A stretch of 64,000 nucleotides of DNA from an uncultured Nitrososphaeria archaeon (GCA_964655015.1 CAZZKR010000002.1:11211-75210); one strand, 5' to 3'. Positions 44,139 through 58,421 are shown, counted from the stretch's first letter. Notes: generated from the letters alone by a model not told the origin. A program made the numbers and translations.

Positions 44139-44243
44139 TTACAGAATTAAATTCGTTGTGTGAACGCTTCTAAGCAGTATGGTTGGAGATTTTAACATAC
44201 CACGCCTCCTAGATCGCTACCGTTTGATTATTAAAAATCAGGT

Positions 44244-44339
44244 TGGCGCCGCGGGTCGGATTCGAACCGACGACCAACGGGTTAACAGCTTCAGCCCCTC
44301 TATAGGGTCCGCTGCTCTACCGAGCTGAGCTACCGCGGC
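44244..44339 (-). tRNA. tRNA-Asn (anticodon GTT), CCA encoded, with a 19-nt intron at a non-canonical position in the anticodon stem
   Basis: The hand fold of the reverse complement gives acceptor GCCGCGG/CCGCGGC and D-arm GCTC-AGCTCGGTA-GAGC. After GCGG a 19-nt insert (ACCCTATAGAGGGGCTGAA) follows. Removing it yields stem GCGGG/CCCGT with loop CTGTTAA. T-arm GTCGG-TTCGAAT-CCGAC, discriminator G, then CCA. Confidence 0.7.
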
Positions 44340-44389
44340 TTAATTGTTAGAATATTATGCAGGACGTTTTAAATTTTTAGTTAAATTTG

Positions 44390-46042
44390 CTAACCCATAG
44401 ATATTGAAACGTATTTTGATTTGTTATAGCTTTCAAGATTCTTTCTTCTTTTAAGGGCGGCCCTTATAAATCCTAGGTATGCCGCCTCAGGTTTCCCTGG
44501 TCTTGAGATAAACTCTGCATGGTATTGGGTTGCTATAAAGTATGGATGGTTCGGTAACTCAATGATCTCAACTCTTCGACCATCTTCGGACATGCCCGAA
44601 AAGATCATGCCTGCACGCGTTAATATATCCCAGTATGCCGGATTGACCTCGTACCTATGACGGTGTCTTTGACGTATTATGCTGGAATTGTAGAGCTTAT
44701 GCGCCAACGTTCCTGGTTTTATGAGAATCTCGAACCCTCCGAGCCTCATCGTGCCCCCTAAGTTTTCAAGATTACGTTGCTCCGGTAAAAGGTCTATAAC
44801 TGGATGCGGTGTATTTGCCGATACTTCCGTGCTGTTAGCGTCCTCAAGACCGCAAACATTTCTCGCATATTCAACGACTGAGAGTTGCATACCAAAGCAT
44901 ATTCCGAGAAACGGTATGCCGTTCTCTCTAGAATACTTGATCGCGTTTATCTTCCCCTCAACACCCCTTTGACCGAATCCGCCCGGTACTAATATTCCAT
45001 CATACCTACTAAGCATGTTTACCCTTTCAGGATTTAGCTCAAACTCTTCTACGTCTATCCAATCTATAATCGCCTTTGCGCCTGCATAAGCTGCTGCATG
45101 TATTAGCGCCTCCCTTACGCTAACGTAAGAATCTGTGAGCTTGGTATACTTGCCACACACGGCAATCCTAACTTCTTCTTTGGCATTCTTCATCGAGGTG
45201 ACTATATCGCTCCACTCCTTTAGCTTTGGCTGTCTCCAGCTAAGGTTAAGCCTGCCGGTTATAAAAACACCCATGCCCTGCTCTTCCAGTATTAGTGGCA
45301 CCTCGTACACGTATTCTACATCGTAGGAGCAAAAAACTGCGCTCTCCGGAAGCGTCCCGAATAAAGCTATCTTACTTCTCGTCGCTCTATCTATCGGCTT
45401 TTCGCATCTTGCCACTATGGCATCCGGTTGTATGCCTATCCTGCGTAGCTCGTTTACGCTATGCTGCAAGGCTTTTGTCTTAAATTCCTCGGTAGCCTTC
45501 AGTATAGGTACCAGAGCTACATGGATGAAAAGTGTGTTCTCGAAACCTTCCTCGAGACGCATTTGTCTAGCAGCCTCTAAAAATGGTTGTCCTTCTATGT
45601 CACCCGCCGTGCCGCCTATTTCAACAATGGCTATATCAACATCATTCCCTTCCGCAACCAACCTTATTCTACGCTTAATCTCATCGGTTATGTGGGGGAC
45701 TATCTGGACACACTTGCCTAAGTAATCCCCGCGTCTTTCTTTGGTAATGACCTCCAAGTAAACCTGTCCTGTCGTGATATTGTTGCGCTTCGAAAGTGTG
45801 ATATCTAGGAACCGTTCATACCATCCTATATCTAAGTCGGTTTCGCCACCATCGTCGGTAACGAAAACTTCACCGTGAGCATACGGGTTCATCGTACCAC
45901 TATCAACATTTAGATAAGGGTCTATCTTGATGGCAGTTACCTTATAACCCCTAGCCTGCAAAATCCTGCCAACAGAAGCCGCGACTATGCCCTTACCAAC
46001 CGACGAGACTACGCCGCCTGTTACGAAGATATATTTCGGCAC
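44390..46042 (-). CDS. pyrG: CTP synthase
   Basis: MPKYIFVTGGVVSSVGKGI N-terminus and glutaminase-domain motifs GICFGMQ and HRHRYEVN. 550 aa. Confidence 0.95.
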   Translation of the reverse strand: MPKYIFVTGGVVSSVGKGIVAASVGRILQARGYKVTAIKIDPYLNVDSGTMNPYAHGEVFVTDDGGETDLDIGWYERFLDITLSKRNNITTGQVYLEVITKERRGDYLGKCVQIVPHITDEIKRRIRLVAEGNDVDIAIVEIGGTAGDIEGQPFLEAARQMRLEEGFENTLFIHVALVPILKATEEFKTKALQHSVNELRRIGIQPDAIVARCEKPIDRATRSKIALFGTLPESAVFCSYDVEYVYEVPLILEEQGMGVFITGRLNLSWRQPKLKEWSDIVTSMKNAKEEVRIAVCGKYTKLTDSYVSVREALIHAAAYAGAKAIIDWIDVEEFELNPERVNMLSRYDGILVPGGFGQRGVEGKINAIKYSRENGIPFLGICFGMQLSVVEYARNVCGLEDANSTEVSANTPHPVIDLLPEQRNLENLGGTMRLGGFEILIKPGTLAHKLYNSSIIRQRHRHRYEVNPAYWDILTRAGMIFSGMSEDGRRVEIIELPNHPYFIATQYHAEFISRPGKPEAAYLGFIRAALKRRKNLESYNKSKYVSISMG

Positions 46043-46145
46043 AAAAATGATACTTTAGAGCTTAATATAAACATTTGTAAAAGGCTCTCGGCGATTTTAC
46101 GAACGTTGCTACTCATAGAAAATTTTTGGCCAGAAAGGTTTAAAA

Positions 46146-46162
46146 GTTAGGCACTACCTAAC
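46146..46162. promoter_or_regulatory. Candidate operator palindrome upstream of the DtxR/MntR-family gene
   Basis: GTTAGG-CACTA-CCTAAC is a perfect 6-bp inverted repeat. It lies between a TTTAAAA TATA-like box (about 46137-46143) and the GTG start at 46169. Confidence 0.35.
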
Positions 46163-46168
46163 ATAGTC

Positions 46169-46603
46169 GTGCCTAGAAATCTTAGCAGGATTGAATCCTG
46201 CTATCTCAAACGCATATACACATCAACCGTCGAGGACGGAAGGCAGATTACGAGCGGCGATCTTGCTAAGATGTTTAACGTTAAAACGCCCTCGGCAATA
46301 GACGTTTTGAACAAATTAGAGAAGAAGATGTACATCAAGAAAGAAAAGTACGGACACATCACATTGACCCAAGCGGGCTATAGGGTTGCGGTCGAGCTAT
46401 TACACGCCCACAGGGTCTTTGAAGTTTTTCTTGTTGAGACCCTCAAAATGAAGTCAAATGAAGCGTGCGAGGTAGCGGATTATGTGGATCATGTACTCGA
46501 TAAGGAGGTAATAACTAGGCTTTGTGCCTACCTCAATAAACCCGAGAAGTGTTGTCACAACCGTACCATAATCCATGTAGGGTGCGAGGCGAGGAGAAAA
46601 TGA
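46169..46603 (+). CDS. DtxR/MntR-family metal-dependent transcriptional repressor
   Basis: N-terminal wHTH plus a dimerisation/metal-binding helix region (HRVFEVFLVETL...EACEVADYVDH). The stop overlaps the next ATG (ATGA). Confidence 0.78.
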   Translation: MPRNLSRIESCYLKRIYTSTVEDGRQITSGDLAKMFNVKTPSAIDVLNKLEKKMYIKKEKYGHITLTQAGYRVAVELLHAHRVFEVFLVETLKMKSNEACEVADYVDHVLDKEVITRLCAYLNKPEKCCHNRTIIHVGCEARRK

Positions 46604-47598
46604 ATCTGAAACCCGCGTTTTTAATGTTCCTTATATTGGCCCTGCTCCTCTCAGCACAGCTTACTGTTAACGCGACCGCAAAATTGATTGTTGTGGTGTC
46701 TACGCCGACGTTAGTACCACTAGTCAAGTCGGCTGCTGGAGATTACGTTGAAGTCATAAGCGTGGTGCCGTTTGGGACAGACCCGCATGAGTACCAACTC
46801 GTTCCCAAGGATTTGGAAAAAGTATCTAACTCGGACCTGCTAATCATTACAGGACATTTCAAATGGGAGGAGGAACTCGCATCGTTCGTAAATCGTGGTT
46901 CAATCTTAAAACTACACGAAGCGTTAGGTGGAAAGCTGAGATTGCTTAACCTTCCAAATGGTGACATAAATTTACACGAATGGTGGCTTTTGCCGCATAA
47001 CGCCAAGCTCGCCATAAGAGAGATAGCGTCCAGATTAGCGGCGATAGATAGCTACAACGCCAAGATTTACGCGAGTCTTGCCGAAAAATCCGTAGAATCT
47101 ATAGACAATGTCTTAGCTGAGGCTGAGAGAACGTTAAGTGAAAAAGGCTTTACCGGCAACGTCGCAATCTGCTCAACACCAATCGAGCAATATCTACTCG
47201 AAGGGTTTGGTATGCGTTGCATGCTTGTATTGGAAGAAGAGGAGTTGACCGGTGTAAAGCCCCTAACCCTTGAGAAAGCAAGAACGATGCTCGCCGATAA
47301 CTCTCTCAAAGTAATTGTGTTAGCTGACATCAGCGAAGGTACTAGTGGGGCAGATGCTGCAAAGAAGCTTGCTGAAGAGACGAACACGTACCTCCTAAAG
47401 CTCATTGTGATGTCAAAAAATGACTGGGATTACGAGACGCTTCTTGCGTATAATGCGGGATTAATTAGTAGTGTGCCTGGTATATCAAGGACGAACTCCG
47501 GAACGAGTACGCTCATGAGCATATTGGTCTCGGTATTATCCGTAGTTGTCGTACTCGAGGCAATATTCATACTAAGGTTAAGGGTGAAGAGGTCATGA
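46600..47598 (+). CDS. Metal (Zn/Mn/Fe) ABC transporter substrate-binding protein (TroA/ZnuA cluster 9)
   Basis: Start placed at MNLKPAFLMFLILALLL (signal/anchor). DPHEY and NLHEWW metal-ligand motifs and a C-terminal TM helix. Confidence 0.72.
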   Translation: MNLKPAFLMFLILALLLSAQLTVNATAKLIVVVSTPTLVPLVKSAAGDYVEVISVVPFGTDPHEYQLVPKDLEKVSNSDLLIITGHFKWEEELASFVNRGSILKLHEALGGKLRLLNLPNGDINLHEWWLLPHNAKLAIREIASRLAAIDSYNAKIYASLAEKSVESIDNVLAEAERTLSEKGFTGNVAICSTPIEQYLLEGFGMRCMLVLEEEELTGVKPLTLEKARTMLADNSLKVIVLADISEGTSGADAAKKLAEETNTYLLKLIVMSKNDWDYETLLAYNAGLISSVPGISRTNSGTSTLMSILVSVLSVVVVLEAIFILRLRVKRS

Positions 47599-48371
47599 AG
47601 TCTGTCGAAACTTCAGGATTAACCGTTAGGCTGAATGGCTTCGAGGCACTGAGCAACGTAACTCTATCTCTGAATCATCCAACATTTACGGCAATCATAG
47701 GACCAAACGGTGCTGGTAAGACTACGTTACTCAAAACGATTCTCGGACTCATAAGACCACAAAGCGGAAACATCAGGGTTATGGGATTGGATCCGATAAA
47801 AGAACCAAAAAAAGTTAGGTCGATGGTTGGTTATGTTCCACAGAGGGATAGGACATCTATCTTCGTTCCAATGAAGACAAAAGACGTCGTAATGATGTCA
47901 AGACTAGCGTCGAAAAGACCGCCGAGGTGGGCAACGGAGTATGATGAAATCGTTGTAAGAAAAGTTCTACGAATTGTGGGGGTTGAAGATTTAGCGGATA
48001 GAAGGTTTGACGAGCTTAGCGGTGGACAACAACAGAAGGTCCTGATAGCTAGGGCCATAGTCTCCGAGCCCAGACTATTATTACTCGATGAACCTTTTAA
48101 TGGCATTGACGTGAGAAGTCAGTATGAAATAACGAATCTCATCACTGGCCTGAAAGAGAGCGGTGTCTCAATTATAATTGTCACACACGACGTGAGTGAC
48201 ATCATTAACCTTATCGACAACATTGTTATATTATACAGAAGGGTTATAGCGGCAGGTAAACCAGAAGATGTTCTGAAAGAAGACATTTTGAAAAGCGTGT
48301 ACGGTGATAGAATCAGGGTTTGTTCTTATGAACCGTGTTTAATGTTCGTACCGAGAGATTCACATGGTTGA
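47595..48371 (+). CDS. Metal ABC transporter ATP-binding protein (ZnuC/TroB type)
   Basis: Walker A GPNGAGKTT, signature LSGGQQQK and Walker B LLLDEPFNGID. Confidence 0.88.
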   Translation: MKSVETSGLTVRLNGFEALSNVTLSLNHPTFTAIIGPNGAGKTTLLKTILGLIRPQSGNIRVMGLDPIKEPKKVRSMVGYVPQRDRTSIFVPMKTKDVVMMSRLASKRPPRWATEYDEIVVRKVLRIVGVEDLADRRFDELSGGQQQKVLIARAIVSEPRLLLLDEPFNGIDVRSQYEITNLITGLKESGVSIIIVTHDVSDIINLIDNIVILYRRVIAAGKPEDVLKEDILKSVYGDRIRVCSYEPCLMFVPRDSHG

Positions 48372-49191
48372 CCTATTATCGCCTTTTTTGATAAAGGCCT
48401 ACGTTGCCGTTCTAATTATGGCGGCTACATCTATAATCGGCTCTATCTCTGTGCTGAGAGGTATTGCCTATATGCCCGCCGAGGCGGCTCATACGGCATT
48501 AGGCGGTGCGGCCTTGGGAATCCTGCTCGGTTATGTGGCTAACATAACAGTAGACCCATATGTGGTTGCGGCAATTTTCGCCAGCATCACGACGCTTTTT
48601 GCAGGCTACGTGGGAAGAAAGGGCGGCCCAGAGGCGGTTGCGACAGCACTTGCTGGCGCATTAACGCTTGGTGTCTCCATTTATGCGTTTGTGAGATACA
48701 TTTTGCCCGCACAACTTAGGGTCGTTTTGGACGGCTATCTTGTAGGTGACATACTTCTCCTAGGAGACTCGGATATAGTTACGCTCTCGATTCTAACTAT
48801 TGTATGTATGCTCATCTTTGCCATTTTCTACAACGAGATAATTTATGTGTGCTTCGACCCTGAAGGTGCCGAAGCCATGGGCATGAATGCCTCCTTCTAC
48901 GACTTTATGATTTTCTTCTTGATAGGTTTAGCTGGTAGTGTGGCAACTAAGACCGTAGGTACCCTTATCGTCTATGCTCTCATGATAGCGCCGGCCATAA
49001 CGGCAAAAGAGCTATCAAAAAGTATTAATGGTATGCTGACCCTTAGCGTAACCCTCACCCTCGTAGCAGGTTACGGAGGCCTGGCGTTTTCTATTATATT
49101 CAACATGCCAAGTAGCGGCTCCATAGCAATATTCGCGAGTGCTATATATGTGGGCACGATATTAGCCAAGAGACTGGCTCCAAAGCGGTGA
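48364..49191 (+). CDS. Metal ABC transporter permease (ABC-3 family, ZnuB/TroC type)
   Basis: 275 aa, 8-9 TM helices, overlaps the ATPase gene by 8 nt. Confidence 0.85.
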   Translation: MVDLLSPFLIKAYVAVLIMAATSIIGSISVLRGIAYMPAEAAHTALGGAALGILLGYVANITVDPYVVAAIFASITTLFAGYVGRKGGPEAVATALAGALTLGVSIYAFVRYILPAQLRVVLDGYLVGDILLLGDSDIVTLSILTIVCMLIFAIFYNEIIYVCFDPEGAEAMGMNASFYDFMIFFLIGLAGSVATKTVGTLIVYALMIAPAITAKELSKSINGMLTLSVTLTLVAGYGGLAFSIIFNMPSSGSIAIFASAIYVGTILAKRLAPKR

Positions 49192-49236
49192 AGGTATAAT
49201 TACGGCCTTGTTTTATGAAAAGATAAAAGGGTGAAT

Positions 49237-49308
49237 GGGCCGGTAGCGTAGCGGAAGCGCGCCCGCCTCGCACGCGGGAGGTCGCGGGTTCGAGTCCCGC
49301 CCGGTCCA
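49237..49308 (+). tRNA. tRNA-Ala (anticodon CGC), the integration target
   Basis: Acceptor GGGCCGG/CCGGTCC with G3:U70. Anticodon arm CCCGC-CTCGCAC-GCGGG, T-arm GCGGG-TTCGAGT-CCCGC, discriminator A. Confidence 0.9.
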
Positions 49309-49310
49309 CT
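49273..49310 (+). repeat. att copy 1 (tRNA-proximal): 38-bp perfect direct repeat covering the 3' half of tRNA-Ala(CGC)
   Basis: CGCGGGAGGTCGCGGGTTCGAGTCCCGCCCGGTCCACT is identical to 53678-53715. The identity extends to 44 bp (49267-49310 versus 53672-53715) with one mismatch. Confidence 0.9.
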
Positions 49311-50259
49311 AAATCGTTCTTTTATTGCTTCTGGAGGCTTTCTAGGGTATGACACACGTAAGGCATATACTCAGCAGCTAAATGTTAGAGTATACTCTAA
49401 CGGTTTGGGAGCGGGCGTTAGAGTATACTCAAACTGTTCAGACATAGACTGGCCCTATGTCGAGGAGGCCATCTACGCGAATTATAATCGCAAATGGGCT
49501 AGGAGATGCCTGGCATTGATGAGGCGCTACGGTCATATTCTCTACTCATTCAATGCCTCGGAGCTAATGGTCCTGAAGCCCTCCAAGCGCGTTGAGGTCA
49601 TGAAAGCCTTAAGCATGCTGGCCAGAATGTTGGGGCTTAGGGATAGATGGAAGGCTATAAGGGAGGCTTATGGGCTCAAATGGTCCTTGGAGATAGATAA
49701 CGTGCCGCCCATCCTAACATCCCAGGCATATTCATCCCTGCTGTCCAAGGCTAGGAGGATGCTCCACTCATCGGGCAATTATAAGGATGCCTTGGAGTTC
49801 ATAGCATTATCGGGCTTAAGGGTTGGAGAGGCATTGGAGGTCATGAAGCTCTACAGTAAAGATGGTGAGAATTATCTTAACAAAGAGCTGATGCTCTTGG
49901 AACACTTCAGGTATCCTGAGATCTTCATGAGGAGGAGTAAGAAAGCATACATAACGGTTCTGGATAGCTACATGCTAAACCTTCTAGACCACGCTAAGCC
50001 CGTAACATATGATGCCCTGAGATCCAGCATTAGGAGAAGGCTTGGGGGAGGACATTGCCCAAGCATATTCAGGAAGATATGGGCGACATTCATGAGACGG
50101 CATGGATTAGAGCCCGAGGCCATAGACCTGCTGCAGGGCAGGACACCCAAGAGCATATTCCTGAAACACTACTACAGGCCCGACCTCAAGCATCTAATCG
50201 AGGATGTCAGGGAGGGCCTCAAGTATCTGAGAGCGGAGCTTGGGATCAATAAATGCTAG
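49309..50259 (+). CDS. Tyrosine recombinase, C-terminal catalytic fragment Int(C) of a partitioned integrase
   Basis: Catalytic-domain motifs GLRVGEALEV (Arg I), IFRKIWATFM, LQGRTPKS and FLKHYYRP (Tyr). The frame is open from within the att repeat to the stop at 50259. The first conventional in-frame start is TTG at 49405. Confidence 0.8.
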   Translation, partial: LNRSFIASGGFLGYDTRKAYTQQLNVRVYSNGLGAGVRVYSNCSDIDWPYVEEAIYANYNRKWARRCLALMRRYGHILYSFNASELMVLKPSKRVEVMKALSMLARMLGLRDRWKAIREAYGLKWSLEIDNVPPILTSQAYSSLLSKARRMLHSSGNYKDALEFIALSGLRVGEALEVMKLYSKDGENYLNKELMLLEHFRYPEIFMRRSKKAYITVLDSYMLNLLDHAKPVTYDALRSSIRRRLGGGHCPSIFRKIWATFMRRHGLEPEAIDLLQGRTPKSIFLKHYYRPDLKHLIEDVREGLKYLRAELGINKC

Positions 50260-50509
50260 GTAGATGCCTACGCCTAGCCGCGAGCATATCGAGGTAGAAT
50301 GCTAGAACCTCTTCGGCGATAAGTGGATTAGCCTCCACATCCACCTCTTCAACCACACCATCATCAAGCCTGTAGAGGAGGAGCTTACCGCGCTCCAAGC
50401 CCAAGGCATATAACTCAAGCTGGAGCTGCAGGAATCCCCAGAGCAGGAGCTTCTCCCTCTCGCTATATCTCCTGAGGACCTTGAGCTCATGGATCATGCC
50501 ATCCCTCAC
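50246..50509 (-). CDS. Hypothetical protein (element cargo)
   Basis: 87-aa ORF with a GTG start, convergent with Int(C) and overlapping it. No motif recognised. Confidence 0.35.
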   Translation of the reverse strand: MRDGMIHELKVLRRYSEREKLLLWGFLQLQLELYALGLERGKLLLYRLDDGVVEEVDVEANPLIAEEVLAFYLDMLAARRRHLPSIY

Positions 50510-50643
50510 AATAGGGGCTTAAAGACTTGGGGGGAGGCGAGTCATCATAGCTCTCGAGACCTCCAAGGACCACGCTATACTTTTGATCTTCATCAAGGCC
50601 AAGCCTATGATTCCCCTAAACGCTAACCTTGCTCACAGCGCTC

Positions 50644-51732
50644 CTAGCCCTCAGCATGACGCCCCTTAACCTCCTTAACTAACTCCCTAAGCATTTCGAC
50701 GTCTAAGCCCCTAATCGTTTTGGCTATTTCGGACTTGCAATAAAGTACGGTTAATAGTTGGTCCTTAGGATAAGAGAGCAAGGTCTCAAGCTCCCTAACA
50801 ACATATCCCAAGGCAATATCAGCATTCTCAGAACCACACTTCCTAAACACCTTGATTAGATCATGGAAAGCCTCATGCCCATCCCTGCATACGGTCATGA
50901 ACCTTATATCTTCTCTAGGTCTCCTCTCACCGCATATATCGCATGTCCTAGTTTCTTGGGCTTCTCCAGATGCTTGAGGCCTAGAGGAAGCTCCTCCAGA
51001 GCAACCCTTATATTCCTCGGAGGTTGTTAGCATGCTAACAGCCTTAGAATCATACAAGCCTTCCTCCTCCAAAGCCCCGAACTCTACAAGAAATTTCTCA
51101 TACTCCCTCTCTATAACCTCAGGGCCCCTCTTCATGATCTCCTTAACCAGACTTGAGGCCTCCCTCCTACCGAGACCATGCGTGGTGATTATCTTAGAGG
51201 CTAAGACTTGATCCTTAGAATCCCTGAGCTTTGAGACCTCATATAGCGTGGAGAAATCCTTGATCTTTGGGGCTAGAATGTTCTTAGCCTCATCACATAT
51301 GTGACCTATTGATAACATCATGGAGACCCATGAACGATCCCTGTTAAGCCGTTTACCTATCTCCACAACGCTCATCCCCAGCTCTTTATGCATGTAGGCC
51401 ACTTTCCTGGCTATGTCGAATGGATGCATGTCGGATCTCTTGAGGTTCTCCTCCAAGCTTATGGCCAATGCCTCCTCATCGTTGCACTCTACAATTTTAG
51501 CCTCCACGATTTTGCGATCAAGACACTTTAACGCGTTAAACCTCATGTAGCCCGAGATTAGCTCATAGCCCCCATCATCCAGCATCCTAACGATTATGGG
51601 TTCTATCTGGATGCCCCTCCGGATGCTCTCCGCGATCTCATCCACCTCATGCTTCTCGACCACTATCCTCTCGGCCCATTTCGGAATCCTTATGCTATCG
51701 ACATCCAGCTCCCTAACCTCTATGACCTTCAT
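50644..51732 (-). CDS. ParB/Srx-fold N-terminal domain protein with an HTH and a C-terminal Cys/His region
   Basis: IEPIIVRMLDDGGYELISGYMRFNALK occupies the ParB-box position, followed by the HTH MSVVEIGKRLNRDRSWVSMML. The C-terminal region reads CDICGE...CRDGHEAFH. It is the largest ORF of the element (362 aa). Confidence 0.65.
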   Translation of the reverse strand: MKVIEVRELDVDSIRIPKWAERIVVEKHEVDEIAESIRRGIQIEPIIVRMLDDGGYELISGYMRFNALKCLDRKIVEAKIVECNDEEALAISLEENLKRSDMHPFDIARKVAYMHKELGMSVVEIGKRLNRDRSWVSMMLSIGHICDEAKNILAPKIKDFSTLYEVSKLRDSKDQVLASKIITTHGLGRREASSLVKEIMKRGPEVIEREYEKFLVEFGALEEEGLYDSKAVSMLTTSEEYKGCSGGASSRPQASGEAQETRTCDICGERRPREDIRFMTVCRDGHEAFHDLIKVFRKCGSENADIALGYVVRELETLLSYPKDQLLTVLYCKSEIAKTIRGLDVEMLRELVKEVKGRHAEG

Positions 51733-51738
51733 GAATCA

Positions 51739-52080
51739 TCACCCCTTAACAACCTCGACCCTATACTGCCTAGAGCCCCTAGAGCCCTCAACAACTACCT
51801 TGAGCCTCAAGCCCCTTAAGCCGCCATGCTCATCCGCGATATACTTGAGCTGGCCTAGGAGGCTATTCTTACCCACCTCATCCCTCCAGGGTATAAGCCA
51901 CGTAAACTTATCGCCGCTATCCGGGAGCCTTATGATCAGTGGAAGCCTAAGGCCATACCTGGTTGATATGGGCCCATTAGGTTCCTCAACGACCTCTATC
52001 ACGTTAATGCCCGGTGCCGGATGGAACAATGGAGGCCTATCATCCTGCTTCTTGATCCTGACGATCTTTCTCCAGGCCAT
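51739..52080 (-). CDS. Hypothetical protein (element cargo)
   Basis: 113-aa ORF, tightly packed between the 75-aa wHTH gene and the ParB-like gene. No motif recognised. Confidence 0.4.
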   Translation of the reverse strand: MAWRKIVRIKKQDDRPPLFHPAPGINVIEVVEEPNGPISTRYGLRLPLIIRLPDSGDKFTWLIPWRDEVGKNSLLGQLKYIADEHGGLRGLRLKVVVEGSRGSRQYRVEVVKG

Positions 52081-52307
52081 TAATTCTCACCCTTAACGAA
52101 TACGTAGCTCTTTGTCGTGTCTATCATCCTGAGTTTCCCTTTGGCCACTAACTCTAACAGCAGAGCTCTAGCAGAATGCCATGAGATGCCCAGATGATAT
52201 GCCACGTAATCTATGCTCACGGGCTTACCTGCACTTTCAACTATCTCCATGGTTTTGTCCATCAGCTTTAACCTCTCAGCCTTAATCCTCTCCAACATGC
52301 CTCTCAC
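52080..52307 (-). CDS. Small wHTH DNA-binding protein (element cargo)
   Basis: 75 aa. VSIDYVAYHLGISWHSARALLLELVAKGKLRMI fits a winged-helix pattern. Its stop overlaps the next start by 1 nt. Confidence 0.5.
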   Translation of the reverse strand: MRGMLERIKAERLKLMDKTMEIVESAGKPVSIDYVAYHLGISWHSARALLLELVAKGKLRMIDTTKSYVFVKGEN

Positions 52308-52355
52308 TTCTCGAAAGACATATCAACATCGAGCCCTCATATTGATCAGGTCACA

Positions 52356-52787
52356 ATGCGCAAGGGGATCAGCCTACTAAACCCCGACAAAGAAGTGGAA
52401 TTAAGGATGGAGACTGAGAGGGCTGAGAGCATAGATGATGCAATCCTAGCAGCCCTCAGGATCCATGTAACCCCCCTCACCTTTAACGATCTGCTAAAAC
52501 TGATGCCCGAGCGCTTCAGGCATGGGGAAAAGCTGAGCAGGGCATTGAAGCGTCTTATCAGGGATGGCATGGCCCAGGAGGTGATCGTTATCATGATGGA
52601 TGAGGTGGTCAAGGCATACGCATTAATGACCGATACGCGGATACTAGTCAGTATACCCGTAATGGATTTGAGGAAAGAGGGCTATAAGGTGCTGATAGGC
52701 TTCGCATATGAAGGGCGGAAAGAGCCCTACGATTTATACGAAGTTAAAGCAGACTACATCCTCATACACATCGATCGAGGTGATTAG
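52356..52787 (+). CDS. Hypothetical protein with an N-terminal wHTH-like region (element cargo)
   Basis: 143 aa. IDDAILAALRIHVTPLTFNDLLKLMPE...LSRALKRLIRDGMAQEV. Divergent from the 75-aa gene. Confidence 0.45.
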   Translation: MRKGISLLNPDKEVELRMETERAESIDDAILAALRIHVTPLTFNDLLKLMPERFRHGEKLSRALKRLIRDGMAQEVIVIMMDEVVKAYALMTDTRILVSIPVMDLRKEGYKVLIGFAYEGRKEPYDLYEVKADYILIHIDRGD

Positions 52788-52792
52788 AAGAC

Positions 52793-53053
52793 ATGAGGAG
52801 GTTGATTATCGGATTGATTATATTCATGGCAGTTATGTGGGCTTTGGTAAATTTCTCTTATGTGAGACAGGTTATAGAAGCATTGGATGAAGCTCATAAA
52901 GCATTAGATGAGGGAGACTATGAAGAATATGAGCGCTGGCACTCGCTTGTCCATAACAGGATTTCACATATGGTCATATTCAACATAATCTACTTTCCCT
53001 TAATTACCTTACTAATTTATGCCTATCGCAAATCACAGGTAAGAGGGAAATAA
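52793..53053 (+). CDS. Small two-TM membrane protein (element cargo)
   Basis: 86 aa with hydrophobic helices at both ends (LIIGLIIFMAVMWALV, VIFNIIYFPLITLLIYA). Confidence 0.4.
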   Translation: MRRLIIGLIIFMAVMWALVNFSYVRQVIEALDEAHKALDEGDYEEYERWHSLVHNRISHMVIFNIIYFPLITLLIYAYRKSQVRGK

Positions 53054-53109
53054 AGGATACTGCATCCATAACATGATAGGCCTTGAACTTCCGCGGCTTG
53101 GCTCGAATA

Positions 53110-53125
53110 GGATAGTCGACTATCC
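53110..53125. repeat. Perfect 16-bp palindrome GGATAGTCGACTATCC nested within 10-bp inverted arms
   Basis: Read directly from the sequence. The outer arms are CTTGAACTTC (53082-53091) and GAAGTTCAAG (53149-53158). Lies in the convergent gap of the element. Confidence 0.8.
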
Positions 53126-53133
53126 GCATTGCA

Positions 53134-53451
53134 TCACATCGCATCGCAGAAGTTCAAGCCCCCTACTAGCCTTTTAGAGACATCCTTCCTGACCATATAT
53201 GCTGAGGGTTTTACTTCTTTATGTCTCGGGAGCTCTATTATGCATGTCCTGACGGTCTTATAGCCCTCTATGGTCTTCACCCTATGGACCACCTGTATCC
53301 TAGGCCTGAAGCATCGATGCTTTGGATCATGAATCCATTCCAGGTATGGCCCATAGCCCTGGAGCCCGCATTTAGGACATCTTATAACCCTAGGCCTGCT
53401 GTTTAGCATGCTAAACGCCTTCCCCGTAATACCCTCGGGCATTCTGGACAA
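53134..53451 (-). CDS. Small zinc-ribbon-like protein (element cargo)
   Basis: 105 aa. IRCPKCG plus later His/Cys residues (HDPKHRC). Confidence 0.4.
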   Translation of the reverse strand: MSRMPEGITGKAFSMLNSRPRVIRCPKCGLQGYGPYLEWIHDPKHRCFRPRIQVVHRVKTIEGYKTVRTCIIELPRHKEVKPSAYMVRKDVSKRLVGGLNFCDAM

Positions 53452-53494
53452 TAAGCCTTTAACAATCTAACGAGGCTCGATCAGGTGATCAGGC

Positions 53495-53715
53495 ATGCCC
53501 ATACTAACGCGTAGGCTTAGAGAGTTCCTAGAACATCCGGAGGCATTCAGCCCAAGCTATAGGAGATACTTGAGACATGTTCTGAAGCATAGAGTCGGCA
53601 TGGCCTATGAGGAGCTCGAATACATCAATGAGAAAGTCCCAGAGCTGCTGGAGGAAATAGAATCCAAGAGACTCGCGCGCGGGAGGTCGCGGGTTCGAGT
53701 CCCGCCCGGTCCACT
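53495..53715 (+). CDS. Integrase N-terminal fragment Int(N), reading into att copy 2
   Basis: ATG at 53495 preceded by the GGTGATC SD. The reading frame across the att repeat is the same frame as Int(C) at the other end ((49405-49273) and (53678-53495) are both multiples of 3). As integrated, the ORF runs on to a stop at 53758. Confidence 0.75.
53678..53715 (+). repeat. att copy 2 (distal)
   Basis: Identical 38 bp to 49273-49310. Lacks the 5' half of the tRNA. Confidence 0.9.
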
Positions 53716-53773
53716 CCTAATTAAGTGCGAAACCTTTTTTATAGGGCAGCGTCTCTAACTCTCTTGAGTTGGA

Positions 53774-53914
53774 ATGGGTAAGAGAGGAGTTAGCAAATAC
53801 TTAGTTTATCTTCAAGATGAACAGGTTGGTAGATGGCTTAAGAATCTTGCTCGGGGAAGTCCTATAACTGCTGAGGTTGCTTTGAGAAGACTTAGTAAAC
53901 TATGTGAGCTTTTT
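53774..53914 (+). pseudogene. N-terminal remnant of a second, unrelated archaeal integrase
   Basis: VGRWLKNLARGSPITAEVALRRLSKLCELF resembles, from memory, the N-terminal ...NLARGS.ITA.VYLRRL..FCE motif of euryarchaeal integrated-element integrases. No catalytic domain follows. Confidence 0.35.
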
Positions 53915-54009
53915 AGGATCGGAAATCTAACTATTCTCGGCTTAAATCTCGCATATCTTCCGTTAAAGCTACTGAAAGTATTTGCTAGAGTTTCAACAGA
54001 CCTTCTAGC

Positions 54010-54532
54010 CTCTCTATAATCTTCTGAAAAAGCAACAAGTCTAACGAGAACACTAAAGCACGGAAGGGAAAGCTTTCTCAATATTTCCTGAGTATAAAGT
54101 GCTTCTAGCATCTTTTTATCGATTTCTTCAATATCTGGTTCTGGTAATAATGGGATGGGGCATATTACTTATGTGAAAGTGTTCAATTTCTTTTTACTAC
54201 ACCACCAAAAATTTTCCTAAAAAGTAAAGATTGACCGAAGTTTGACGATAAATAAGCATATAGATATCCAATAGGAACATTTTCTCTGAATATCACCCTT
54301 AATTAATGTTCAGAAACGCCAATATAACTCTTCCAACACTTCCTGATCTTGTTACAAGTATCCAATTATTTTGAACTAAATACTCTTTACCCAAATTTTT
54401 TACTCTTTTCCCTGTAAATACGAAATTGAGTATGTCTTTAGATGATATAAAGGGGACTCCATTTTTCGTGTAAGTGCGCTTAAATCTAGATGGATAGAAA
54501 ATCTTATTACAAAATTCGTAAATGTATCGCAT
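54010..54532 (-). pseudogene. Degraded type I restriction-modification specificity (HsdS)-like gene
   Basis: Three frame segments on the minus strand. They read ...GVPFISSKDI...ILVTRSGSVGRV (54532-54299), then VIFRENVPIGYLYAYLSSNFGQSLLFRKIFGG (54296-54183), then IPLLPEPDIEEIDKKM. Stops and frameshifts separate them. The order matches a single HsdS target-recognition domain plus conserved helix. The 3' limit is approximate. Confidence 0.45.
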
Positions 54533-54580
54533 AATTTAAATTAGTGAAAACTAAATAAGAAACTAAGGAGGAAAAAGGAA

Positions 54581-55354
54581 ATGCCGCCCAAAATCGAGGA
54601 GGTAGAAGTTAGTGAAAAGGAACTTGAAAATCTTTTAGTGGAGAACCCCGACGCTATTGAAAGAGGTATGAAAATTTTAGGACGTCAAATACAAACTGAT
54701 AACGGACCTTTAGACATTTTGGCTGTTGATGAGGATGGAGTATTGACTTTAATTGAGTTGAAGAATGAGGTTGATGACGGACAATTGGACCAAGGATTAC
54801 GTTATTATGATTGGGTTAGAACTAACATTCAATGGATCTCTCGGAACTTTAAAGAGGTTGATGCTGAGCAAGAGCCAAGGTTGATTCTCATTGCTCCAGC
54901 CTTCTCTGATAATCTACGAAGGATTGCAAAATACGTAAACGTGAACCTGGATTTAATAGAGTATCATGTTATTCAACTTCCCGATGGAAAAAGAGGGGTT
55001 CTTTGTCATCGAATAGAAACTGGAGGCCCTCCTGAACCACCAGTTGTTCCTACAAGAGAGGGTAACTTAAAACGTATCGAGAATGAAAAAGTAAGACAAC
55101 TTTGTGCAGAATGTCTTAAGGAATTGGAGAATAAGGGGATTGAAATAAGACCGATACAAAACTATTGGTTTTCTATATGGTACAAAGGTAAGCGGTTTAT
55201 GTATCTTGGTTGTAAAAAGAAGTTTTTTGTTTGTGAGATACAAAAACCAGATGGGTCATGGACTAAAAGAATAAGGATCACGATAAAAGAGGAGTGGGAA
55301 AGGATGTTTAATAACGAAGTTATGCCAACTATAAGTAAAATCGAGTCTGAGTAA
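54581..55354 (+). CDS. PD-(D/E)xK nuclease, NucS/DUF91-like core at the N-terminus, uncharacterised C-terminal domain
   Basis: GPLDILAVDEDGVLTLIELK...QGLRYYDW matches the RecB-like D...D/E-x-K...Q-x-x-x-Y pattern of NucS-type nucleases. Strong SD (AAGGAGG) about 10 nt upstream. 257 aa and intact. Confidence 0.6.
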   Translation: MPPKIEEVEVSEKELENLLVENPDAIERGMKILGRQIQTDNGPLDILAVDEDGVLTLIELKNEVDDGQLDQGLRYYDWVRTNIQWISRNFKEVDAEQEPRLILIAPAFSDNLRRIAKYVNVNLDLIEYHVIQLPDGKRGVLCHRIETGGPPEPPVVPTREGNLKRIENEKVRQLCAECLKELENKGIEIRPIQNYWFSIWYKGKRFMYLGCKKKFFVCEIQKPDGSWTKRIRITIKEEWERMFNNEVMPTISKIESE

Positions 55355-55411
55355 GAGTATTTTGATGAGCGAATTATTTAAGGAATTTAACGGATACATT
55401 AAAAACTACTA

Positions 55412-55972
55412 GACTTTGTTTAGAAACTTACCCAAGTTACCGACAATAACATAATCACAATGTGGACATTTCCCATTCCTTGCTTTCAAAGATTCATAAG
55501 ATATGGGCTTCTTGCATCTAGGAGATTTTATGTTTTTCTTTTAGCCATGCTTCTTCCTAATTTTCAGCCAAATCGAGCACCATAAAATTATCCCTATAGC
55601 ACTTAAAACAATTCTCATATCTCCTATTCCAATAATAATATTTCTGAGCGTTACTTCTTCAGAAGATAATTCATTTATGATCTCCCAAGTTTCACTGGTA
55701 TAGAGAATTGCCTCCACTGTAAAGTTAATGAGCATGTAAATAAGTAAGGGAAGTAAAGAACCCAGCAAAGCTCTTGTAAATTTTCTCTTTATTGAGTAAA
55801 CCAAAAGAATAAGAAGAGAAGCAAATACCGAGAGTGAGAATAAATTTCCTTGAACAAAATGTAAGATTCTAAAGTTAGCTTTTTCTAGGGAAACAAATAA
55901 AAAACCTGTTAAAATAAAAGCTAGGAATGAAACTCCTATGGCTAAAGCAACTTTTTTAGCTTCTGGTATTTT
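55412..55972 (-). pseudogene. Decayed membrane-protein gene with an in-frame TAA and a zinc-ribbon-like tail
   Basis: The listed 87-aa ORF (55541-55804) is preceded in frame by 56 open codons (55805-55972) that have no ATG/GTG/TTG start. After its TAA it continues in the same frame as KKNIKSPRCKKPISYESLKARNGKCPHCDYVIV, ending at a TAG at 55409-55411. Confidence 0.35.
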
Positions 55973-56268
55973 TCACTTCACTTTAACCTTTTTATGAAAA
56001 ACTATGCTATAACTAAGATTTGTTTTTGAAATATAACTTTAAATTTTTCAAGTAGGACGATATGCTACTATGATACCCACTGTTCAACCCAACGACTTAG
56101 AAAGCTTATCTTTGGGTTGCATGTAGGTTGCTAAGAAATTAATAAAATTGAGTAGTTAAGCCTATGATTGCCTTTTAATACCTTCCGAGGAGCTTTCCCT
56201 GTTTTAATCGGAGCTATCGAGGCGCTTAAGCTCATTGATGATGGAAGAGACCTTCTAGATAGATTCTT

Positions 56269-56899
56269 ATGAGCAACGAAGTGAGGTGGGTTGATTTGAA
56301 CAGAAAAACCGTCATCATGATCATTCTTGCAGCGGCAATCATGGTTAGCGTATTTTACGCTTGGTACTTTCGACTTTATGGTGCTACAGAGACGTTGAAA
56401 GAAGATTTTGAAAACGGGTTCGATGAATGGGTCGCAAATGCGGATGTGCCACTTGACCCCAACAACTCTGGGCACCTCATCGAATGGAGCATAACACATT
56501 CAAACGACGTCGCTAGCTCCGGCCGATACTCATTAAAGTTTTTCATTGACGGACGGCAGGACGATGGAACAATATGGATAGAGAAAAATAGCTGTACAAA
56601 AAGGCACTCAAATACGAGTTAACATCTTCTTTGACTTCTATAGTGACCATGAAAGCCTCGCAAACACTAGAGCTGTCATATGCGCTTATGCTGGCGTACA
56701 GAAAGCCAGAGCTGAGGAACATTTCACCGTAATTGGAAACGCGAACGAAGTTGAGGGCTGGAAAAGATACAGTTACACGACAAACATAGACACTGGTTCC
56801 AGTGAAGAAATATGGGTCGCGCTAGGCATCTCAGTACGCTGGGAAACTCACATGACGTACTACATCGACAATGTTGAAGTGAGAATCCTTTACCTTTAA
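56269..56899 (+). pseudogene. Frameshifted gene for an N-terminally anchored secreted protein (jelly-roll/CBM-like)
   Basis: ORF 56269-56622 ends shortly after an A5 run (56584-56588). The +1 frame from 56588 stays open to the TAA at 56897-56899 and encodes protein-like sequence (IAVQKGTQIRVNIFFDFYSD...WKRYSYTTNIDTG...THMTYYIDNVEVRILYL). Confidence 0.5.
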
Positions 56900-56907
56900 A
56901 TATATCG

Positions 56908-57129
56908 TTGAAGCTTTCTGCTGGAACTGTAACCCTTTTCGCATTCGATGAAGGACAAGGGTTAAGCGAACACACAGCACCATACAATGCTATGGCATTC
57001 GTACTTGAGGGAGATGTAGAAATAACCATCGGTGGAGAAGGCGAAGTGGTGATACTGCCTGTTAACAAGCCCCGTGCGGTGATAGTAAAAAAGAAATTTA
57101 AAATACTCCTAATAATGATTAGGTCATAA
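56908..57129 (+). CDS. Cupin-domain protein, apparently N-terminally truncated
   Basis: GTVTLFAFDEGQGLSEHTAPYNAMAFVLEGDVEITIGG is the cupin motif-1 region. An in-frame stop lies 33 nt upstream of the TTG start. Motif 2 reads PRA where PHA is usual. Confidence 0.5.
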   Translation: MKLSAGTVTLFAFDEGQGLSEHTAPYNAMAFVLEGDVEITIGGEGEVVILPVNKPRAVIVKKKFKILLIMIRS

Positions 57130-57163
57130 CCTAAACCCAAGAGCTCACAAAATAATGAAATTT

Positions 57164-57358
57164 TTATTGGGAGAAGTTTTGTTTTTCGAAGTTAAGAGTG
57201 TCCATTTCAACAGCGTGGCTTGTTATTTCTAGTGAGCAAGCGTGGTACTCAGAGCAGAATTTTTCGCATTTTTCTGCCCATATTCTCTCCTTATAGGCAA
57301 GACCGCATTCTTCGCAAATATAGAAAGTGAGCCCTTCTTTTTTCACTTCTTTCACCAT
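57164..57358 (-). CDS. Small Cys-rich (zinc-ribbon-like) protein
   Basis: 64 aa with CEECG...CEKFC...HAC. Located downstream of the ferritin-VIT1 gene on the same strand. Confidence 0.45.
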   Translation of the reverse strand: MVKEVKKEGLTFYICEECGLAYKERIWAEKCEKFCSEYHACSLEITSHAVEMDTLNFEKQNFSQ

Positions 57359-57478
57359 GACAGCTAAGCATCCCCCTAATTATGTGAGAAATGACTTCGG
57401 GTATTTGAGGTTTTGGGAGAAACATGCATGTGTTATATCTATGGAAGTTAGCCTTCCATCTTCAGCTAATGTTTTCTA

Positions 57479-58375: not shown

Positions 58376-58421
58376 TCATCTAATAAAGATGTTGTCCCTT
58401 AATTTTTTGGATGGTTAAAGG

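What the first reader, a model, noticed from the sequence alone, without database searches (positions are those of the whole stretch)
49311..53677. Element cargo has no recognisable replicase, capsid or packaging gene, only ParB-like and small DNA-binding proteins
Apart from the integrase, the element encodes eight ORFs. These are a 362-aa ParB/Srx-fold protein with an HTH and a Cys/His tail, two wHTH-like proteins (75 aa and 143 aa), a zinc-ribbon-like protein, a two-TM protein and two or three unknowns. I see no Rep (RepA/primase-polymerase/MCM/rolling-circle HUH), no Walker ATPase and no obvious structural protein. Several explanations fit. The ParB-like protein or an unknown ORF may be a new kind of initiator. 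The element may be a satellite mobilised by a helper virus or plasmid. Or it may persist only in integrated form.
Basis: inference. Interest (0 to 1): 0.62.

Follow-up and report, generated by a model that had tools for sequence, protein, structure and literature searches.

The report
Minimal tRNA-integrating archaeal element without replicase
This is a 4.4-kb mobile element inserted in a tRNA-Ala gene of an uncultured hot-spring archaeon; it has a self-splitting (SSV-type) integrase and a small set of DNA-handling genes but no recognisable replication or capsid gene, which fits the known class of archaeal "cryptic integrated elements", though as a family I did not find described.

Summary
The element is 4405 bp, bounded by 44-bp att repeats (49267-49310 and 53672-53715) at the 3' half of tRNA-Ala(CGC). 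Three other metagenome contigs carry the same locus at over 99% identity with one att copy and no element, so the insertion is precise and polymorphic.

Circularising the element fuses int(N) (53495-53715) to int(C) (49311-50259) into one 389-aa SSV-type "suicidal" integrase.

The cargo:
- A wHTH-like protein (75 aa).
- A ParB/Noc-type protein whose C-terminus carries a Cys/His motif.
- An 87-aa ORF that is the remnant of a conserved 181-aa Cas4/lambda-exonuclease-like nuclease, broken in this copy.
- A 143-aa wHTH-like protein, a two-TM protein and a Zn-ribbon-like protein.

No Rep, P-loop, capsid or packaging gene was found by Pfam, PHROGs, NCBIfam, PADLOC or motif scan.

About 35 relatives, all from metagenomes, share the synteny under purifying selection. 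All 18 resolvable junctions are integrated forms and none is attP. Element depth is 0.1-0.15 of the left flank.

Best reading: a non-autonomous integrative element, mostly carried passively in the chromosome. A satellite or a new initiator cannot be excluded. It is a new family within a known class, of moderate interest.

The parts
49237..49309 (+). Host tRNA-Ala(CGC), the integration target, intact after integration
   Evidence: ARAGORN; Rfam tRNA 65.5 bits
49267..49310 (+). attL, 44-bp direct repeat (3' half of the tRNA)
   Evidence: the repeat finder family D2. The empty-site contigs L120-L122 keep a single copy
49311..50259 (+). int(C): C-terminal, catalytic part of the split SSV-type integrase. 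The frame is open from 49311; the listed ORF starts at an in-frame TTG at 49405
   Evidence: Pfam PF16795 E 3.7e-8; PHROG integrase 5e-13; family profile matches SSV1 integrase 3VCF at E 1e-5; in frame with int(N) across att
49384..49434 (.). Two 18-bp palindromes (GTTAGAG-N4-YTCWAAC) 33 bp apart inside int, about 75-125 bp from the att core. Candidate protein-binding sites (parS, operator or recombination accessory site)
   Evidence: Both copies at the same 33-bp spacing, and nowhere else, in 14 of 15 relatives despite about 60% integrase identity (one copy in L044); the Val codon is GTT in 28/28 cases
50246..50690 (-). Pseudogene of the conserved 181-aa Cas4/lambda-exonuclease-like PD-(D/E)xK nuclease. 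Only the 87-aa C-terminal ORF (50246-50509) is left; the upstream end is approximate
   Evidence: Three-frame comparison with intact homologues shows a deletion, a stop and frameshifts. Family motifs PD...ExK...QxxxY. AF2 pLDDT 81.8. Foldseek top hits Cas4 SSO0001 at E 5.5e-7 and lambda Exo
50644..51732 (-). ParB/Noc-type protein: N-terminal ParB domain, HTH domain, and a C-terminal Cys/His region unlike the usual ParB C-terminus
   Evidence: PDB profile search: Noc 7NG0 at E 5e-28. GxxRxxA and ENLKR invariant; C264 and C267 invariant, C282 and H286 nearly so
51739..52080 (-). 113-aa protein with predicted OB-fold topology; candidate ssDNA/nucleic-acid binder
   Evidence: AF2 pLDDT 87.9, order b1-b2-b3-alpha-b4-b5. 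The weak PDB hits are mostly OB folds. BFVD hits to uncharacterised viral proteins, best E 3e-5, TM 0.63. dN/dS 0.13-0.48
52080..52307 (-). 75-aa wHTH-like protein, first gene of the o75-o113-parB-(nuclease) operon
   Evidence: Weak wHTH profile hits; conserved in relatives; dN/dS 0.13-0.33
52308..52355 (.). Divergent intergenic (promoter/operator) region, conserved in relatives
52356..52787 (+). 143-aa protein with a weak wHTH-like N-terminal half; the most variable module in the family
   Evidence: MJ223 MarR-like, E 0.04
52793..53053 (+). 86-aa protein with two hydrophobic (TM) segments; present in only some relatives
   Evidence: Sequence; family listing
53134..53451 (-). 105-aa Zn-ribbon-like protein (conserved CPxC...H...C core of about 58 aa)
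   Evidence: only marginal family hits
53495..53715 (+). int(N): N-terminal part of the split integrase, ending inside attR
   Evidence: Joining 53495-53715 to 49311-50259 gives a continuous 389-aa ORF; int(N) is conserved in relatives
53672..53715 (+). attR, second copy of the 44-bp repeat (one mismatch to attL)

Best explanation
The element belongs to an apparently undescribed family of minimal (about 4.4-4.7 kb) tRNA-integrating elements of thermophilic Nitrososphaerota archaea.

Shown:
- It integrates by an SSV-type 'suicidal' tyrosine integrase whose gene contains attP and is therefore split into int(N) and int(C) on insertion.
- The insertion is precise, and occupied and empty sites coexist in nature.
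- The family is under purifying selection and sits in several different tRNA genes.

Inferred:
- It encodes no polymerase, primase, helicase or known initiator, so it is not an autonomous replicon. It is copied mainly passively, as part of the host chromosome.
- Any circular form is rare and transient. It would have to be copied by the host replisome, or would simply re-integrate using the integrase gene that circularisation restores.
- The conserved operon (wHTH protein, OB-fold protein, ParB/Noc-type protein, Cas4/lambda-exonuclease-like nuclease) handles the element's DNA during that phase. ParB probably binds the two conserved 18-bp palindromes and acts as a ParA-less clamp, for retention or silencing in the manner of KorB or Noc. 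The OB-fold protein and the nuclease would process or protect DNA ends or single strands.
- This particular copy has lost the nuclease and, with int split, is probably trapped unless a related element supplies integrase.
For: - Element limits and empty site.
- SSV-type integrase.
- No known replicase, ATPase or structural family, and no Walker A motif.
- 93% coding, with no AT-rich non-coding stretch.
- Depth in four hot-spring metagenomes: element 12, 12.5, 7.6 and about 4x; left flank 82, 85, 66 and 33x; right flank about 27-47x. Nothing higher in four more runs.
- Junction census in 35 distinct contigs: 8 attL, 10 attR, 0 attP.
- Purifying selection on o113, o181, ParB and o75, with dN/dS 0.03-0.52.
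- A 99.45% identical element lies next to tRNA-Phe in one contig and tRNA-Lys in others.
- ParB/Noc similarity with GxxRxxA and ENLKR conserved.
- Palindromes conserved at the DNA level.
- Nuclease and OB folds.
- Literature: split integrases need an intact int supplied in trans (PMC8371274). Many thaumarchaeal cryptic integrated elements lack an identifiable Rep (PMC6563490).
Against: - Purifying selection on four DNA-handling genes, and recent spread to different tRNAs, imply a functional extrachromosomal or transfer stage. That stage could include real replication by an unrecognised initiator.
- The depth and junction data come from assemblies. The Logan contigs (k = 31) cannot span the 44-bp att repeat, so a rare or condition-induced episome would be missed.
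- No binding, CTPase, nuclease or ssDNA-binding activity was tested.
- The link between ParB and the palindromes is a guess. They could equally be integrase or regulator sites.
- No structure was predicted for the 143-aa and 105-aa proteins or for the ParB C-terminal region, so a hidden initiator fold is not excluded.
Confidence: 0.5

Rival explanations
1. Satellite or hitch-hiker. The element replicates and/or spreads only with a helper virus, plasmid or vesicle system of the same host, as pSSVx and pSSVi do with fuselloviruses. Its own genes serve integration, regulation and DNA protection.
For: It is very small, has an SSV-type integrase and has no capsid or packaging genes. The family has spread across different tRNAs and host lineages (GC 0.41-0.60) while staying intact. 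Integrated pSSVi shows barely detectable episomes until SSV2 infects (PMC8371274). The OB-fold model resembles uncharacterised proteins of archaeal viruses (SBFV3, AFV2, His1, SEV1).
Against: No gene of the element has a relative in IMG/VR or INPHARED. pSSVx, by contrast, shares ORFs with its helper (own knowledge). pSSVx also carries its own prim-pol replication protein (PMC4158269), and pSSVi a putative one (own knowledge); this element has none. No candidate helper is known for this host.
Confidence: 0.2
2. Autonomous mini-replicon with a new initiator. One of the DNA-binding proteins (ParB-like, 75-aa wHTH or 143-aa wHTH-like) recruits the host replisome to an element site such as the paired palindromes. 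Alternatively, the nuclease and OB-fold protein drive recombination-dependent replication.
For: Four or five DNA-binding or DNA-processing proteins are conserved under purifying selection. The paired palindromes have a fixed 33-bp spacing. wHTH proteins initiate replication of some plasmids, and this was proposed for the 2.6-kb element NitUzo-E2 (PMC6563490). An exonuclease-plus-binder pair recalls the ssDNA-binding, annealing and nuclease operon of rudiviruses (own knowledge).
Against: Element depth is well below chromosomal depth and no attP junction was seen. ParB proteins are not known to act as initiators. The nuclease is dispensable: it is a pseudogene here and absent in L032. The 143-aa protein is the least conserved module. 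There are no iteron arrays or AT-rich unwinding region.
Confidence: 0.2
3. A dead remnant. This copy is simply a decaying, trapped insertion with no remaining activity.
For: int is split, the nuclease gene is broken, and attL and attR differ at one base.
Against: All other genes are intact, including a joined int ORF with no stop. The insertion is still polymorphic, with empty sites at over 99% identical flanks and a nearly identical copy in another assembly (L025), so it is recent. The L032 lineage also lacks the nuclease but is otherwise intact.
Confidence: 0.1

Closest known systems
Archaeal elements with SSV-type ('suicidal', type I) integrases: fuselloviruses SSV1/SSV2, pSSVi, pTN3/TKV4, the pT26-2 family, and thaumarchaeal NitEve-E3
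   Same: The integrase has the PF16795 domain. attP lies inside int. [quoted passage not shown] Chimeric att ends are seen in relatives, as in the Badel 2020 specificity-switch model (PMC8371274).
   Different: The integrase is too divergent for tblastn against phage and plasmid records. None of the cargo is shared with those families. There is no DnaA-like ATPase, capsid, prim-pol or helicase gene. The host is an uncultured Nitrososphaerota lineage.
Cryptic integrated elements of Thaumarchaeota (Krupovic et al. 2019, PMC6563490), e.g. [quoted passage not shown]
   Same: A small tRNA-flanked element with an integrase and wHTH-type proteins, and no identifiable replication, virion or conjugation genes.
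   Different: It carries a distinct conserved operon (wHTH, OB-fold, ParB, Cas4-like nuclease). In that study ParB was reported only in large ICEs, next to TFIIB. Here ParB sits in a 4.4-kb element without TFIIB or any conjugation genes.
ParB/Noc/KorB CTP-dependent DNA clamps
   Same: N-terminal ParB domain with GxxRxxA and ENxxR boxes and a following HTH domain. The best structural relatives by sequence are Noc and ParB (E 1e-24 to 5e-28).
   Different: There is no ParA partner in the element. The C-terminal dimerisation domain (PF23552) is replaced by a region with a conserved CxxC...C...H motif. Only one Arg of the GERRxRA patch is kept in this clade. CTP binding was not tested.
Cas4 / lambda exonuclease / RecB-family PD-(D/E)xK nucleases, including Cas4-like nucleases of archaeal viruses
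   Same: PD...ExK...QxxxY motifs and the same fold (4IC1 at E 5.5e-7; lambda Exo at 1e-4).
   Different: It lacks the four-Cys Fe-S cluster of Cas4, is only 181 aa, and is not linked to CRISPR. It is inactivated in the window copy.
Fusellovirus satellites pSSVx and pSSVi
   Same: About 5-6 kb and capsid-less. pSSVi has an SSV-type integrase and is mostly integrated.
   Different: Those carry their own replication protein (shown for pSSVx in PMC4158269), and pSSVx shares ORFs with its helper. Neither holds here.

Membership tests
SSV-type (suicidal, type I) integrase element | Integrase with the Phage_integr_3 (PF16795) catalytic domain | tested here: met
   Pfam E 3.7e-8, above the gathering score. 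The family profile matches SSV1 integrase structures 3VCF, 3UXU and 4DKS at E 1e-5
SSV-type (suicidal, type I) integrase element | attP lies inside the int ORF, so integration splits int into int(N) and int(C) | tested here: met
   Joining 53495-53715 to 49311-50259 gives one 389-aa ORF with att inside it. The same layout occurs in relatives
SSV-type (suicidal, type I) integrase element | Insertion at a tRNA gene with a direct repeat, and an empty site in related genomes | tested here: met
   44-bp repeat; empty site in L120-L122
SSV-type (suicidal, type I) integrase element | A free circular form carrying intact int | tested here: not met
   0 attP among 18 resolvable junctions and no terminal overlaps. 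The assemblies used cannot exclude rare circles
ParB/Noc/KorB CTP-clamp family | ParB N-terminal domain with the GxxRxxA and ENxxR nucleotide-binding boxes | tested here: met
   G61, R64, A67, E95, N96 and R99 are invariant in 26 sequences; aligned to Noc GERRWRA/ENLQR
ParB/Noc/KorB CTP-clamp family | Central HTH DNA-binding domain | tested here: met
   KorB E 1e-7 and HTH_ParB E 8.5e-5; the profile alignment reaches residue 207
ParB/Noc/KorB CTP-clamp family | Canonical C-terminal dimerisation domain (PF23552) | tested here: not met
   None of the 26 family members carries PF23552, whereas bacterial hits do. The C-terminus instead has CxxC...C...H
ParB/Noc/KorB CTP-clamp family | Cognate ParA ATPase and parS site | tested here: inconclusive
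   There is no Walker A motif in the element, so no ParA. The paired 18-bp palindromes are a parS candidate only
ParB/Noc/KorB CTP-clamp family | CTP binding and hydrolysis, and clamp closure | not testable with these tools
   Needs biochemistry
Cas4 / lambda-exonuclease PD-(D/E)xK nucleases | Catalytic D...ExK plus the QxxxY motif and the matching fold | tested here: met
   In intact relatives: D85, E94, K96 and Q114 are invariant and Y120 is at least 90% conserved. Foldseek 4IC1 E 5.5e-7, probability 1.0
Cas4 / lambda-exonuclease PD-(D/E)xK nucleases | Four-Cys Fe-S cluster of Cas4 proper | tested here: not met
   No conserved Cys in alignments A2 and A4
Cas4 / lambda-exonuclease PD-(D/E)xK nucleases | Intact gene in the window | tested here: not met
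   Deletion, stop and frameshifts
OB-fold ssDNA-binding proteins | Five-stranded barrel with a helix between strands 3 and 4 | tested here: met
   AF2 model, pLDDT 87.9, element order b-b-b-alpha-b-b
OB-fold ssDNA-binding proteins | Significant structural or sequence match to a characterised SSB | tested here: not met
   Best PDB hit E 0.047. No Pfam or PHROG family, even for distant relatives. The BFVD hits are uncharacterised proteins
Known replication initiators (RCR HUH, prim-pol/AEP, MCM/SF3 helicase, Orc1/Cdc6, RepA-type) | Profile match or catalytic motifs (HUH+Y, Walker A/B, AEP motifs) | tested here: not met
   No hit in Pfam, PHROGs or NCBIfam. No Walker A; the only HUH-like string lies outside the annotated reading frames. 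HHpred-level search of the 143-aa and 105-aa proteins was not possible
Virus satellite (pSSVx/pSSVi type) | Genes shared with a helper virus | tested here: not met
   No relatives in IMG/VR or INPHARED
Virus satellite (pSSVx/pSSVi type) | Packaging into helper particles | not testable with these tools
   Needs particle-fraction sequencing or culture
Cryptic integrated element (sensu Krupovic 2019) | att-flanked, integrase-encoding, and without virion, conjugation or casposase hallmarks | tested here: met
   definition in PMC6563490

The most novel reading that the evidence does not exclude
The family is a self-sufficient mini-replicon that starts replication without any known initiator class. 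Either a ParA-less, Zn-binding ParB/CTP clamp loaded on the paired 18-bp palindromes recruits the host replisome, or the exonuclease plus OB-fold pair primes recombination-dependent replication. This would be a new way for archaeal episomes to replicate.
Probability: 0.12. Interest if true: 0.75.

Novelty: new variant of a known kind. Interest (0 to 1): 0.4.

Why it matters
Uncultured thermophilic Nitrososphaerota (relatives of Caldarchaeales) have almost no characterised mobile elements. This family is small, abundant in several hot-spring metagenomes, still mobile, and fully delimited by matched occupied and empty sites.

That makes it a compact test case for three questions:
- How do 'suicidal-integrase' elements survive without a replicase?
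- What does a ParB clamp do without ParA?
- Could such an element serve as a vector backbone for these archaea?

Elements without an identifiable replication gene are already a recognised and common category, so the absence of a Rep is not in itself surprising.

Tried and rejected
- Free circular relatives. I checked terminal overlaps and att context in 35 distinct contigs. The apparent full-length integrases (326-381 aa) are read-through into the tRNA. The L001 and L049 'extensions' are host flank. L111 (4425 bp) is only a unitig broken at att.
- A search with the 87-aa fragment returned only itself, because the truncated protein is its own cluster representative. I registered relatives through the listing of cluster members so that they could be folded.
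- Sequence-profile searches of the 181-aa and 113-aa families against the PDB and Pfam gave nothing usable. Only structure prediction helped.
- GTDB genomes, IMG/VR, INPHARED and PLSDB hold no close relative of any element gene.
- Contexts of distant relatives of the 113-aa protein were short contigs of small unknown genes and were uninformative.
- No RNA run holds the element.
- Rfam found only the tRNA. The bacterial promoter and terminator scan is at chance level and does not apply to archaea.
- No element protein matches PADLOC, so a defence-island reading of the cargo is rejected.
- The 'joint' seen in runs X5 and X6 carries 34 unrelated letters and looks like another tRNA-bearing contig, not an excision product.

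Full report
**1. What is there**

The window is archaeal. The host's CTP synthase is 87-92% identical to proteins of MAGs labelled 'Nitrososphaerota archaeon' and about 67% identical to Candidatus Caldarchaeum. The runs that hold the sequence are almost all hot-spring metagenomes.

A tRNA-Ala(CGC) gene lies at 49237-49309. Its last 44 bases (49267-49310) recur at 53672-53715 with one mismatch. These repeats bound a 4405-bp insert.

Three independent metagenome contigs (L120, L121, L122) match window 44000-49310 and 53672-58999 at 99.4-99.98% identity. They join the two stretches through a single att copy. The element is therefore a precise, site-specific insertion that is polymorphic in nature. 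Its real right end is 53715, not 53677.

**2. The integrase is the self-splitting SSV type**

The ORF at 53495 runs into attR. The frame downstream of attL is open from 49311 and contains the 284-aa ORF that starts at 49405. Joining 53495-53715 to 49311-50259 gives one uninterrupted 389-aa ORF.

The C-terminal part matches Pfam PF16795 'Archaeal phage integrase' and a PHROG integrase family. A family profile matches the SSV1 integrase catalytic domain (3VCF) at E 1e-5.

This is the type I or 'suicidal' arrangement reviewed in PMC8371274. Integration splits int, and excision then needs an intact int from another copy. The ORF at 53495-53758 is therefore int(N), not cargo.

**3. The cargo, gene by gene**

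- *ParB-like protein (50644-51732, minus strand).* It matches ParB_N, KorB and HTH_ParB and TIGR00180. A profile of 26 family members matches Noc and ParB CTP-clamp structures at E 5e-28 to 1e-17 over residues 5-207. GxxRxxA (G61, R64, A67) and ENLKR are invariant. The C-terminal region carries CxxC...C...H, with C264 and C267 invariant and C282 and H286 at least 90% conserved. It lacks the usual ParB C-terminal domain.
- *113-aa protein (51739-52080, minus strand).* No family matched in Pfam, PHROGs or NCBIfam. AlphaFold2 with 22 relatives gives pLDDT 87.9 and the order b1-b2-b3-alpha-b4-b5, an OB-fold topology. PDB matches are not significant, but most are OB folds: RPA, the SSB-like PrgE, uS12, Teb1 and hSSB1. 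In the viral structure library it matches uncharacterised proteins of about 110-140 aa. These include proteins of archaeal viruses and DUF669 proteins; the best has E 3e-5 and TM 0.63. The family is rare: 53 representative clusters among 1.84 billion, none annotated.
- *87-aa ORF (50246-50509, minus strand).* Relatives have a 181-aa gene here that overlaps the end of parB. In the window the N-terminal half carries a deletion of about 25 aa, an in-frame stop and frameshifts. The intact family shows invariant E23, E32, E33, N34, PD85, E94-L-K96 and Q114, with Y120 at least 90% conserved. The model (pLDDT 81.8) matches Cas4 SSO0001 at E 5.5e-7 and lambda and LHK exonucleases at about 1e-4 to 1e-5. 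It has no Cas4 cysteine cluster. The L032 lineage lacks the gene cleanly, so it is accessory.
- *75-aa and 143-aa proteins.* Only weak wHTH-type profile hits.
- *86-aa protein.* Two hydrophobic segments.
- *105-aa protein.* A conserved CPxC...H...C core.

No Walker A motif occurs in any frame of the circularised element. The only HUH-like string lies outside the annotated reading frames. The element is 93% coding and has no AT-rich gap. PADLOC finds nothing in the element.

**4. A family**

The ParB protein has about 25 close homologues (37-72% identity), all from metagenomes. There are none in 185,579 GTDB representative genomes and none in IMG/VR.

About 35 distinct contigs share the synteny: int(N)-att, Zn-ribbon protein, (TM protein), (143-aa protein), then the divergent 75-aa, 113-aa, ParB and 181-aa genes, then int(C)-att-tRNA. 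L025 is the same element at close to 100% identity in another assembly.

Different members sit in tRNA-Ala, tRNA-Lys and tRNA-Phe genes (ARAGORN). One further member, L042, has an Asn-type (GTT) anticodon arm at attL. Their GC content ranges from 0.41 to 0.60.

Pairwise dN/dS is 0.13-0.48 for the 113-aa gene, 0.03-0.34 for the 181-aa gene, 0.22-0.52 for ParB and 0.13-0.33 for the 75-aa gene. These are working genes.

A 99.45% identical element lies next to tRNA-Phe in L112 and tRNA-Lys in L113-L116. L042 has unlike att ends. This fits the int(N)/int(C) reshuffling model of PMC8371274.

**5. Tests of the three readings**

*Free circles.* No contig has terminal overlaps. Among junctions with at least 120 nt on both sides there are 8 attL, 10 attR and 0 attP. 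The candidate exceptions (L001, L049, L111 and the long integrase ORFs) were examined and rejected.

*Depth.*

| Run | Element | Left flank | Right flank |
|---|---|---|---|
| X1 | 12x | 82x | about 34-45x |
| X2 | 12.5x | 85x | about 35-47x |
| X3 | 7.6x | 66x | about 42x |
| X4 | about 4x | 33x | about 27x |

About one genome in seven to nine carries the element. It is not multicopy. Four more runs show nothing higher.

One caveat applies. These are k = 31 contigs that break at the 44-bp att repeat, so rare circles cannot be seen.

*Larger parent or helper.* None of Int, ParB, the 113-aa protein or the 181-aa protein has a relative in IMG/VR. The integrase has no tblastn hit in the phage or plasmid collections. 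The best archaeal plasmid hit for ParB is 34% identity over half its length, in a 37.7-kb Saccharolobus plasmid.

**6. A conserved DNA site**

Two 18-bp palindromes (GTTAGAGTATACTCTAAC and GTTAGAGTATACTCAAAC) lie at 49384-49401 and 49417-49434, inside int just past att. Fourteen of the 15 relatives examined have two copies, exactly 33 bp apart and nowhere else; the fifteenth (L044) shows one copy at this threshold. This holds although the integrases are only about 60% identical. The valine codon is GTT in 28 of 28 cases.

This is constraint at the DNA level. It suggests two dimer-binding sites on one face of the helix. Which protein binds them (ParB, a wHTH protein or the integrase) is unknown.

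**7. Interpretation**

The most economical reading (confidence 0.5) is a non-autonomous integrative element.
- It is replicated passively with the chromosome.
- It is moved by a suicidal integrase.
- It has a small operon that manages its DNA during a rare extrachromosomal phase.
- ParB would act as a ParA-less clamp, inferred by analogy with Noc and KorB from my own knowledge of those families.
- This copy, lacking the nuclease and with int split, is probably trapped.

The rivals:
- A satellite of an unknown helper (0.2).
- A mini-replicon with an unrecognised initiator or recombination-dependent replication (0.2).
- Plain decay (0.1).

Purifying selection and recent mobility argue that some extrachromosomal stage exists. 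Nothing here shows how DNA is copied in it.

**8. Comparison and novelty**

Membership in the class of SSV-type-integrase elements, and in the 'cryptic integrated elements' of PMC6563490, is met on the features I could test. That paper already notes that many such elements lack an identifiable replication protein.

The cargo operon and the integrase clade are not found in the catalogued viruses, plasmids or GTDB representative genomes searched here. Four literature searches found no description of them. I rate it a new family (variant) of a known kind, with interest 0.4.

Noticed in passing
window 49384-49434; also L004, L026, L028-L032, L040, L046, L047, L111, L112: Two 18-bp palindromes (GTTAGAG-N4-YTCWAAC) exactly 33 bp apart inside the integrase gene. 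They are conserved at the DNA level across the family and found nowhere else in the elements. A likely protein-binding site of unknown partner.
   Followed up: partly
window 50246-50690 (minus strand): The conserved 181-aa Cas4/lambda-exonuclease-like gene is a pseudogene in this copy, and in the near-identical L025. The L032 lineage lacks it altogether.
   Followed up: yes
window 53716-56000: A low-GC (0.33-0.39) stretch lies right of attR. It holds a 77-aa fragment of a type I R-M specificity subunit (54299-54532, minus strand) and a 257-aa NucS_C-like protein (54581-55354) that matches PADLOC candidate systems PDC-S18 and PDC-S11. Its depth is about half that of the left flank, so it is itself a variable island at the same tRNA.
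   Followed up: partly
L112 versus L113-L116; L042: Elements 99.45% identical lie next to tRNA-Phe(GAA) in one contig and tRNA-Lys(CTT) in others. L042 has an Asn-type attL and an Ala-type attR. These look like chimeric int(N)/int(C) ends, secondary-site integration, or assembly chimeras.
   Followed up: partly
window 49310-49315 (loose ends in runs X1-X4): Several different sequences follow the tRNA-Ala gene in the same metagenomes, and none is the element or the right flank. Other occupants or strain variants therefore use this site.
   Followed up: no
window 44244-44339 (minus strand): ARAGORN calls a 96-nt 'tRNA-Tyr' with anticodon ATA. It is probably an intron-containing archaeal tRNA whose anticodon is mis-read.
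   Followed up: no
window 52308-52355 and 53452-53494: GATCAGG occurs only three times on the + strand of the whole window: once in one of the element's two divergent promoter regions and twice, in tandem, in the other. It may be a shared operator.
   Followed up: partly
window 46169-49191: The host operon next to the tRNA is an ordinary metal-uptake cluster: an iron-dependent (DtxR/MntR-type) repressor followed by ZnuA, ZnuC and ZnuB-like ABC transporter genes.
   Followed up: partly
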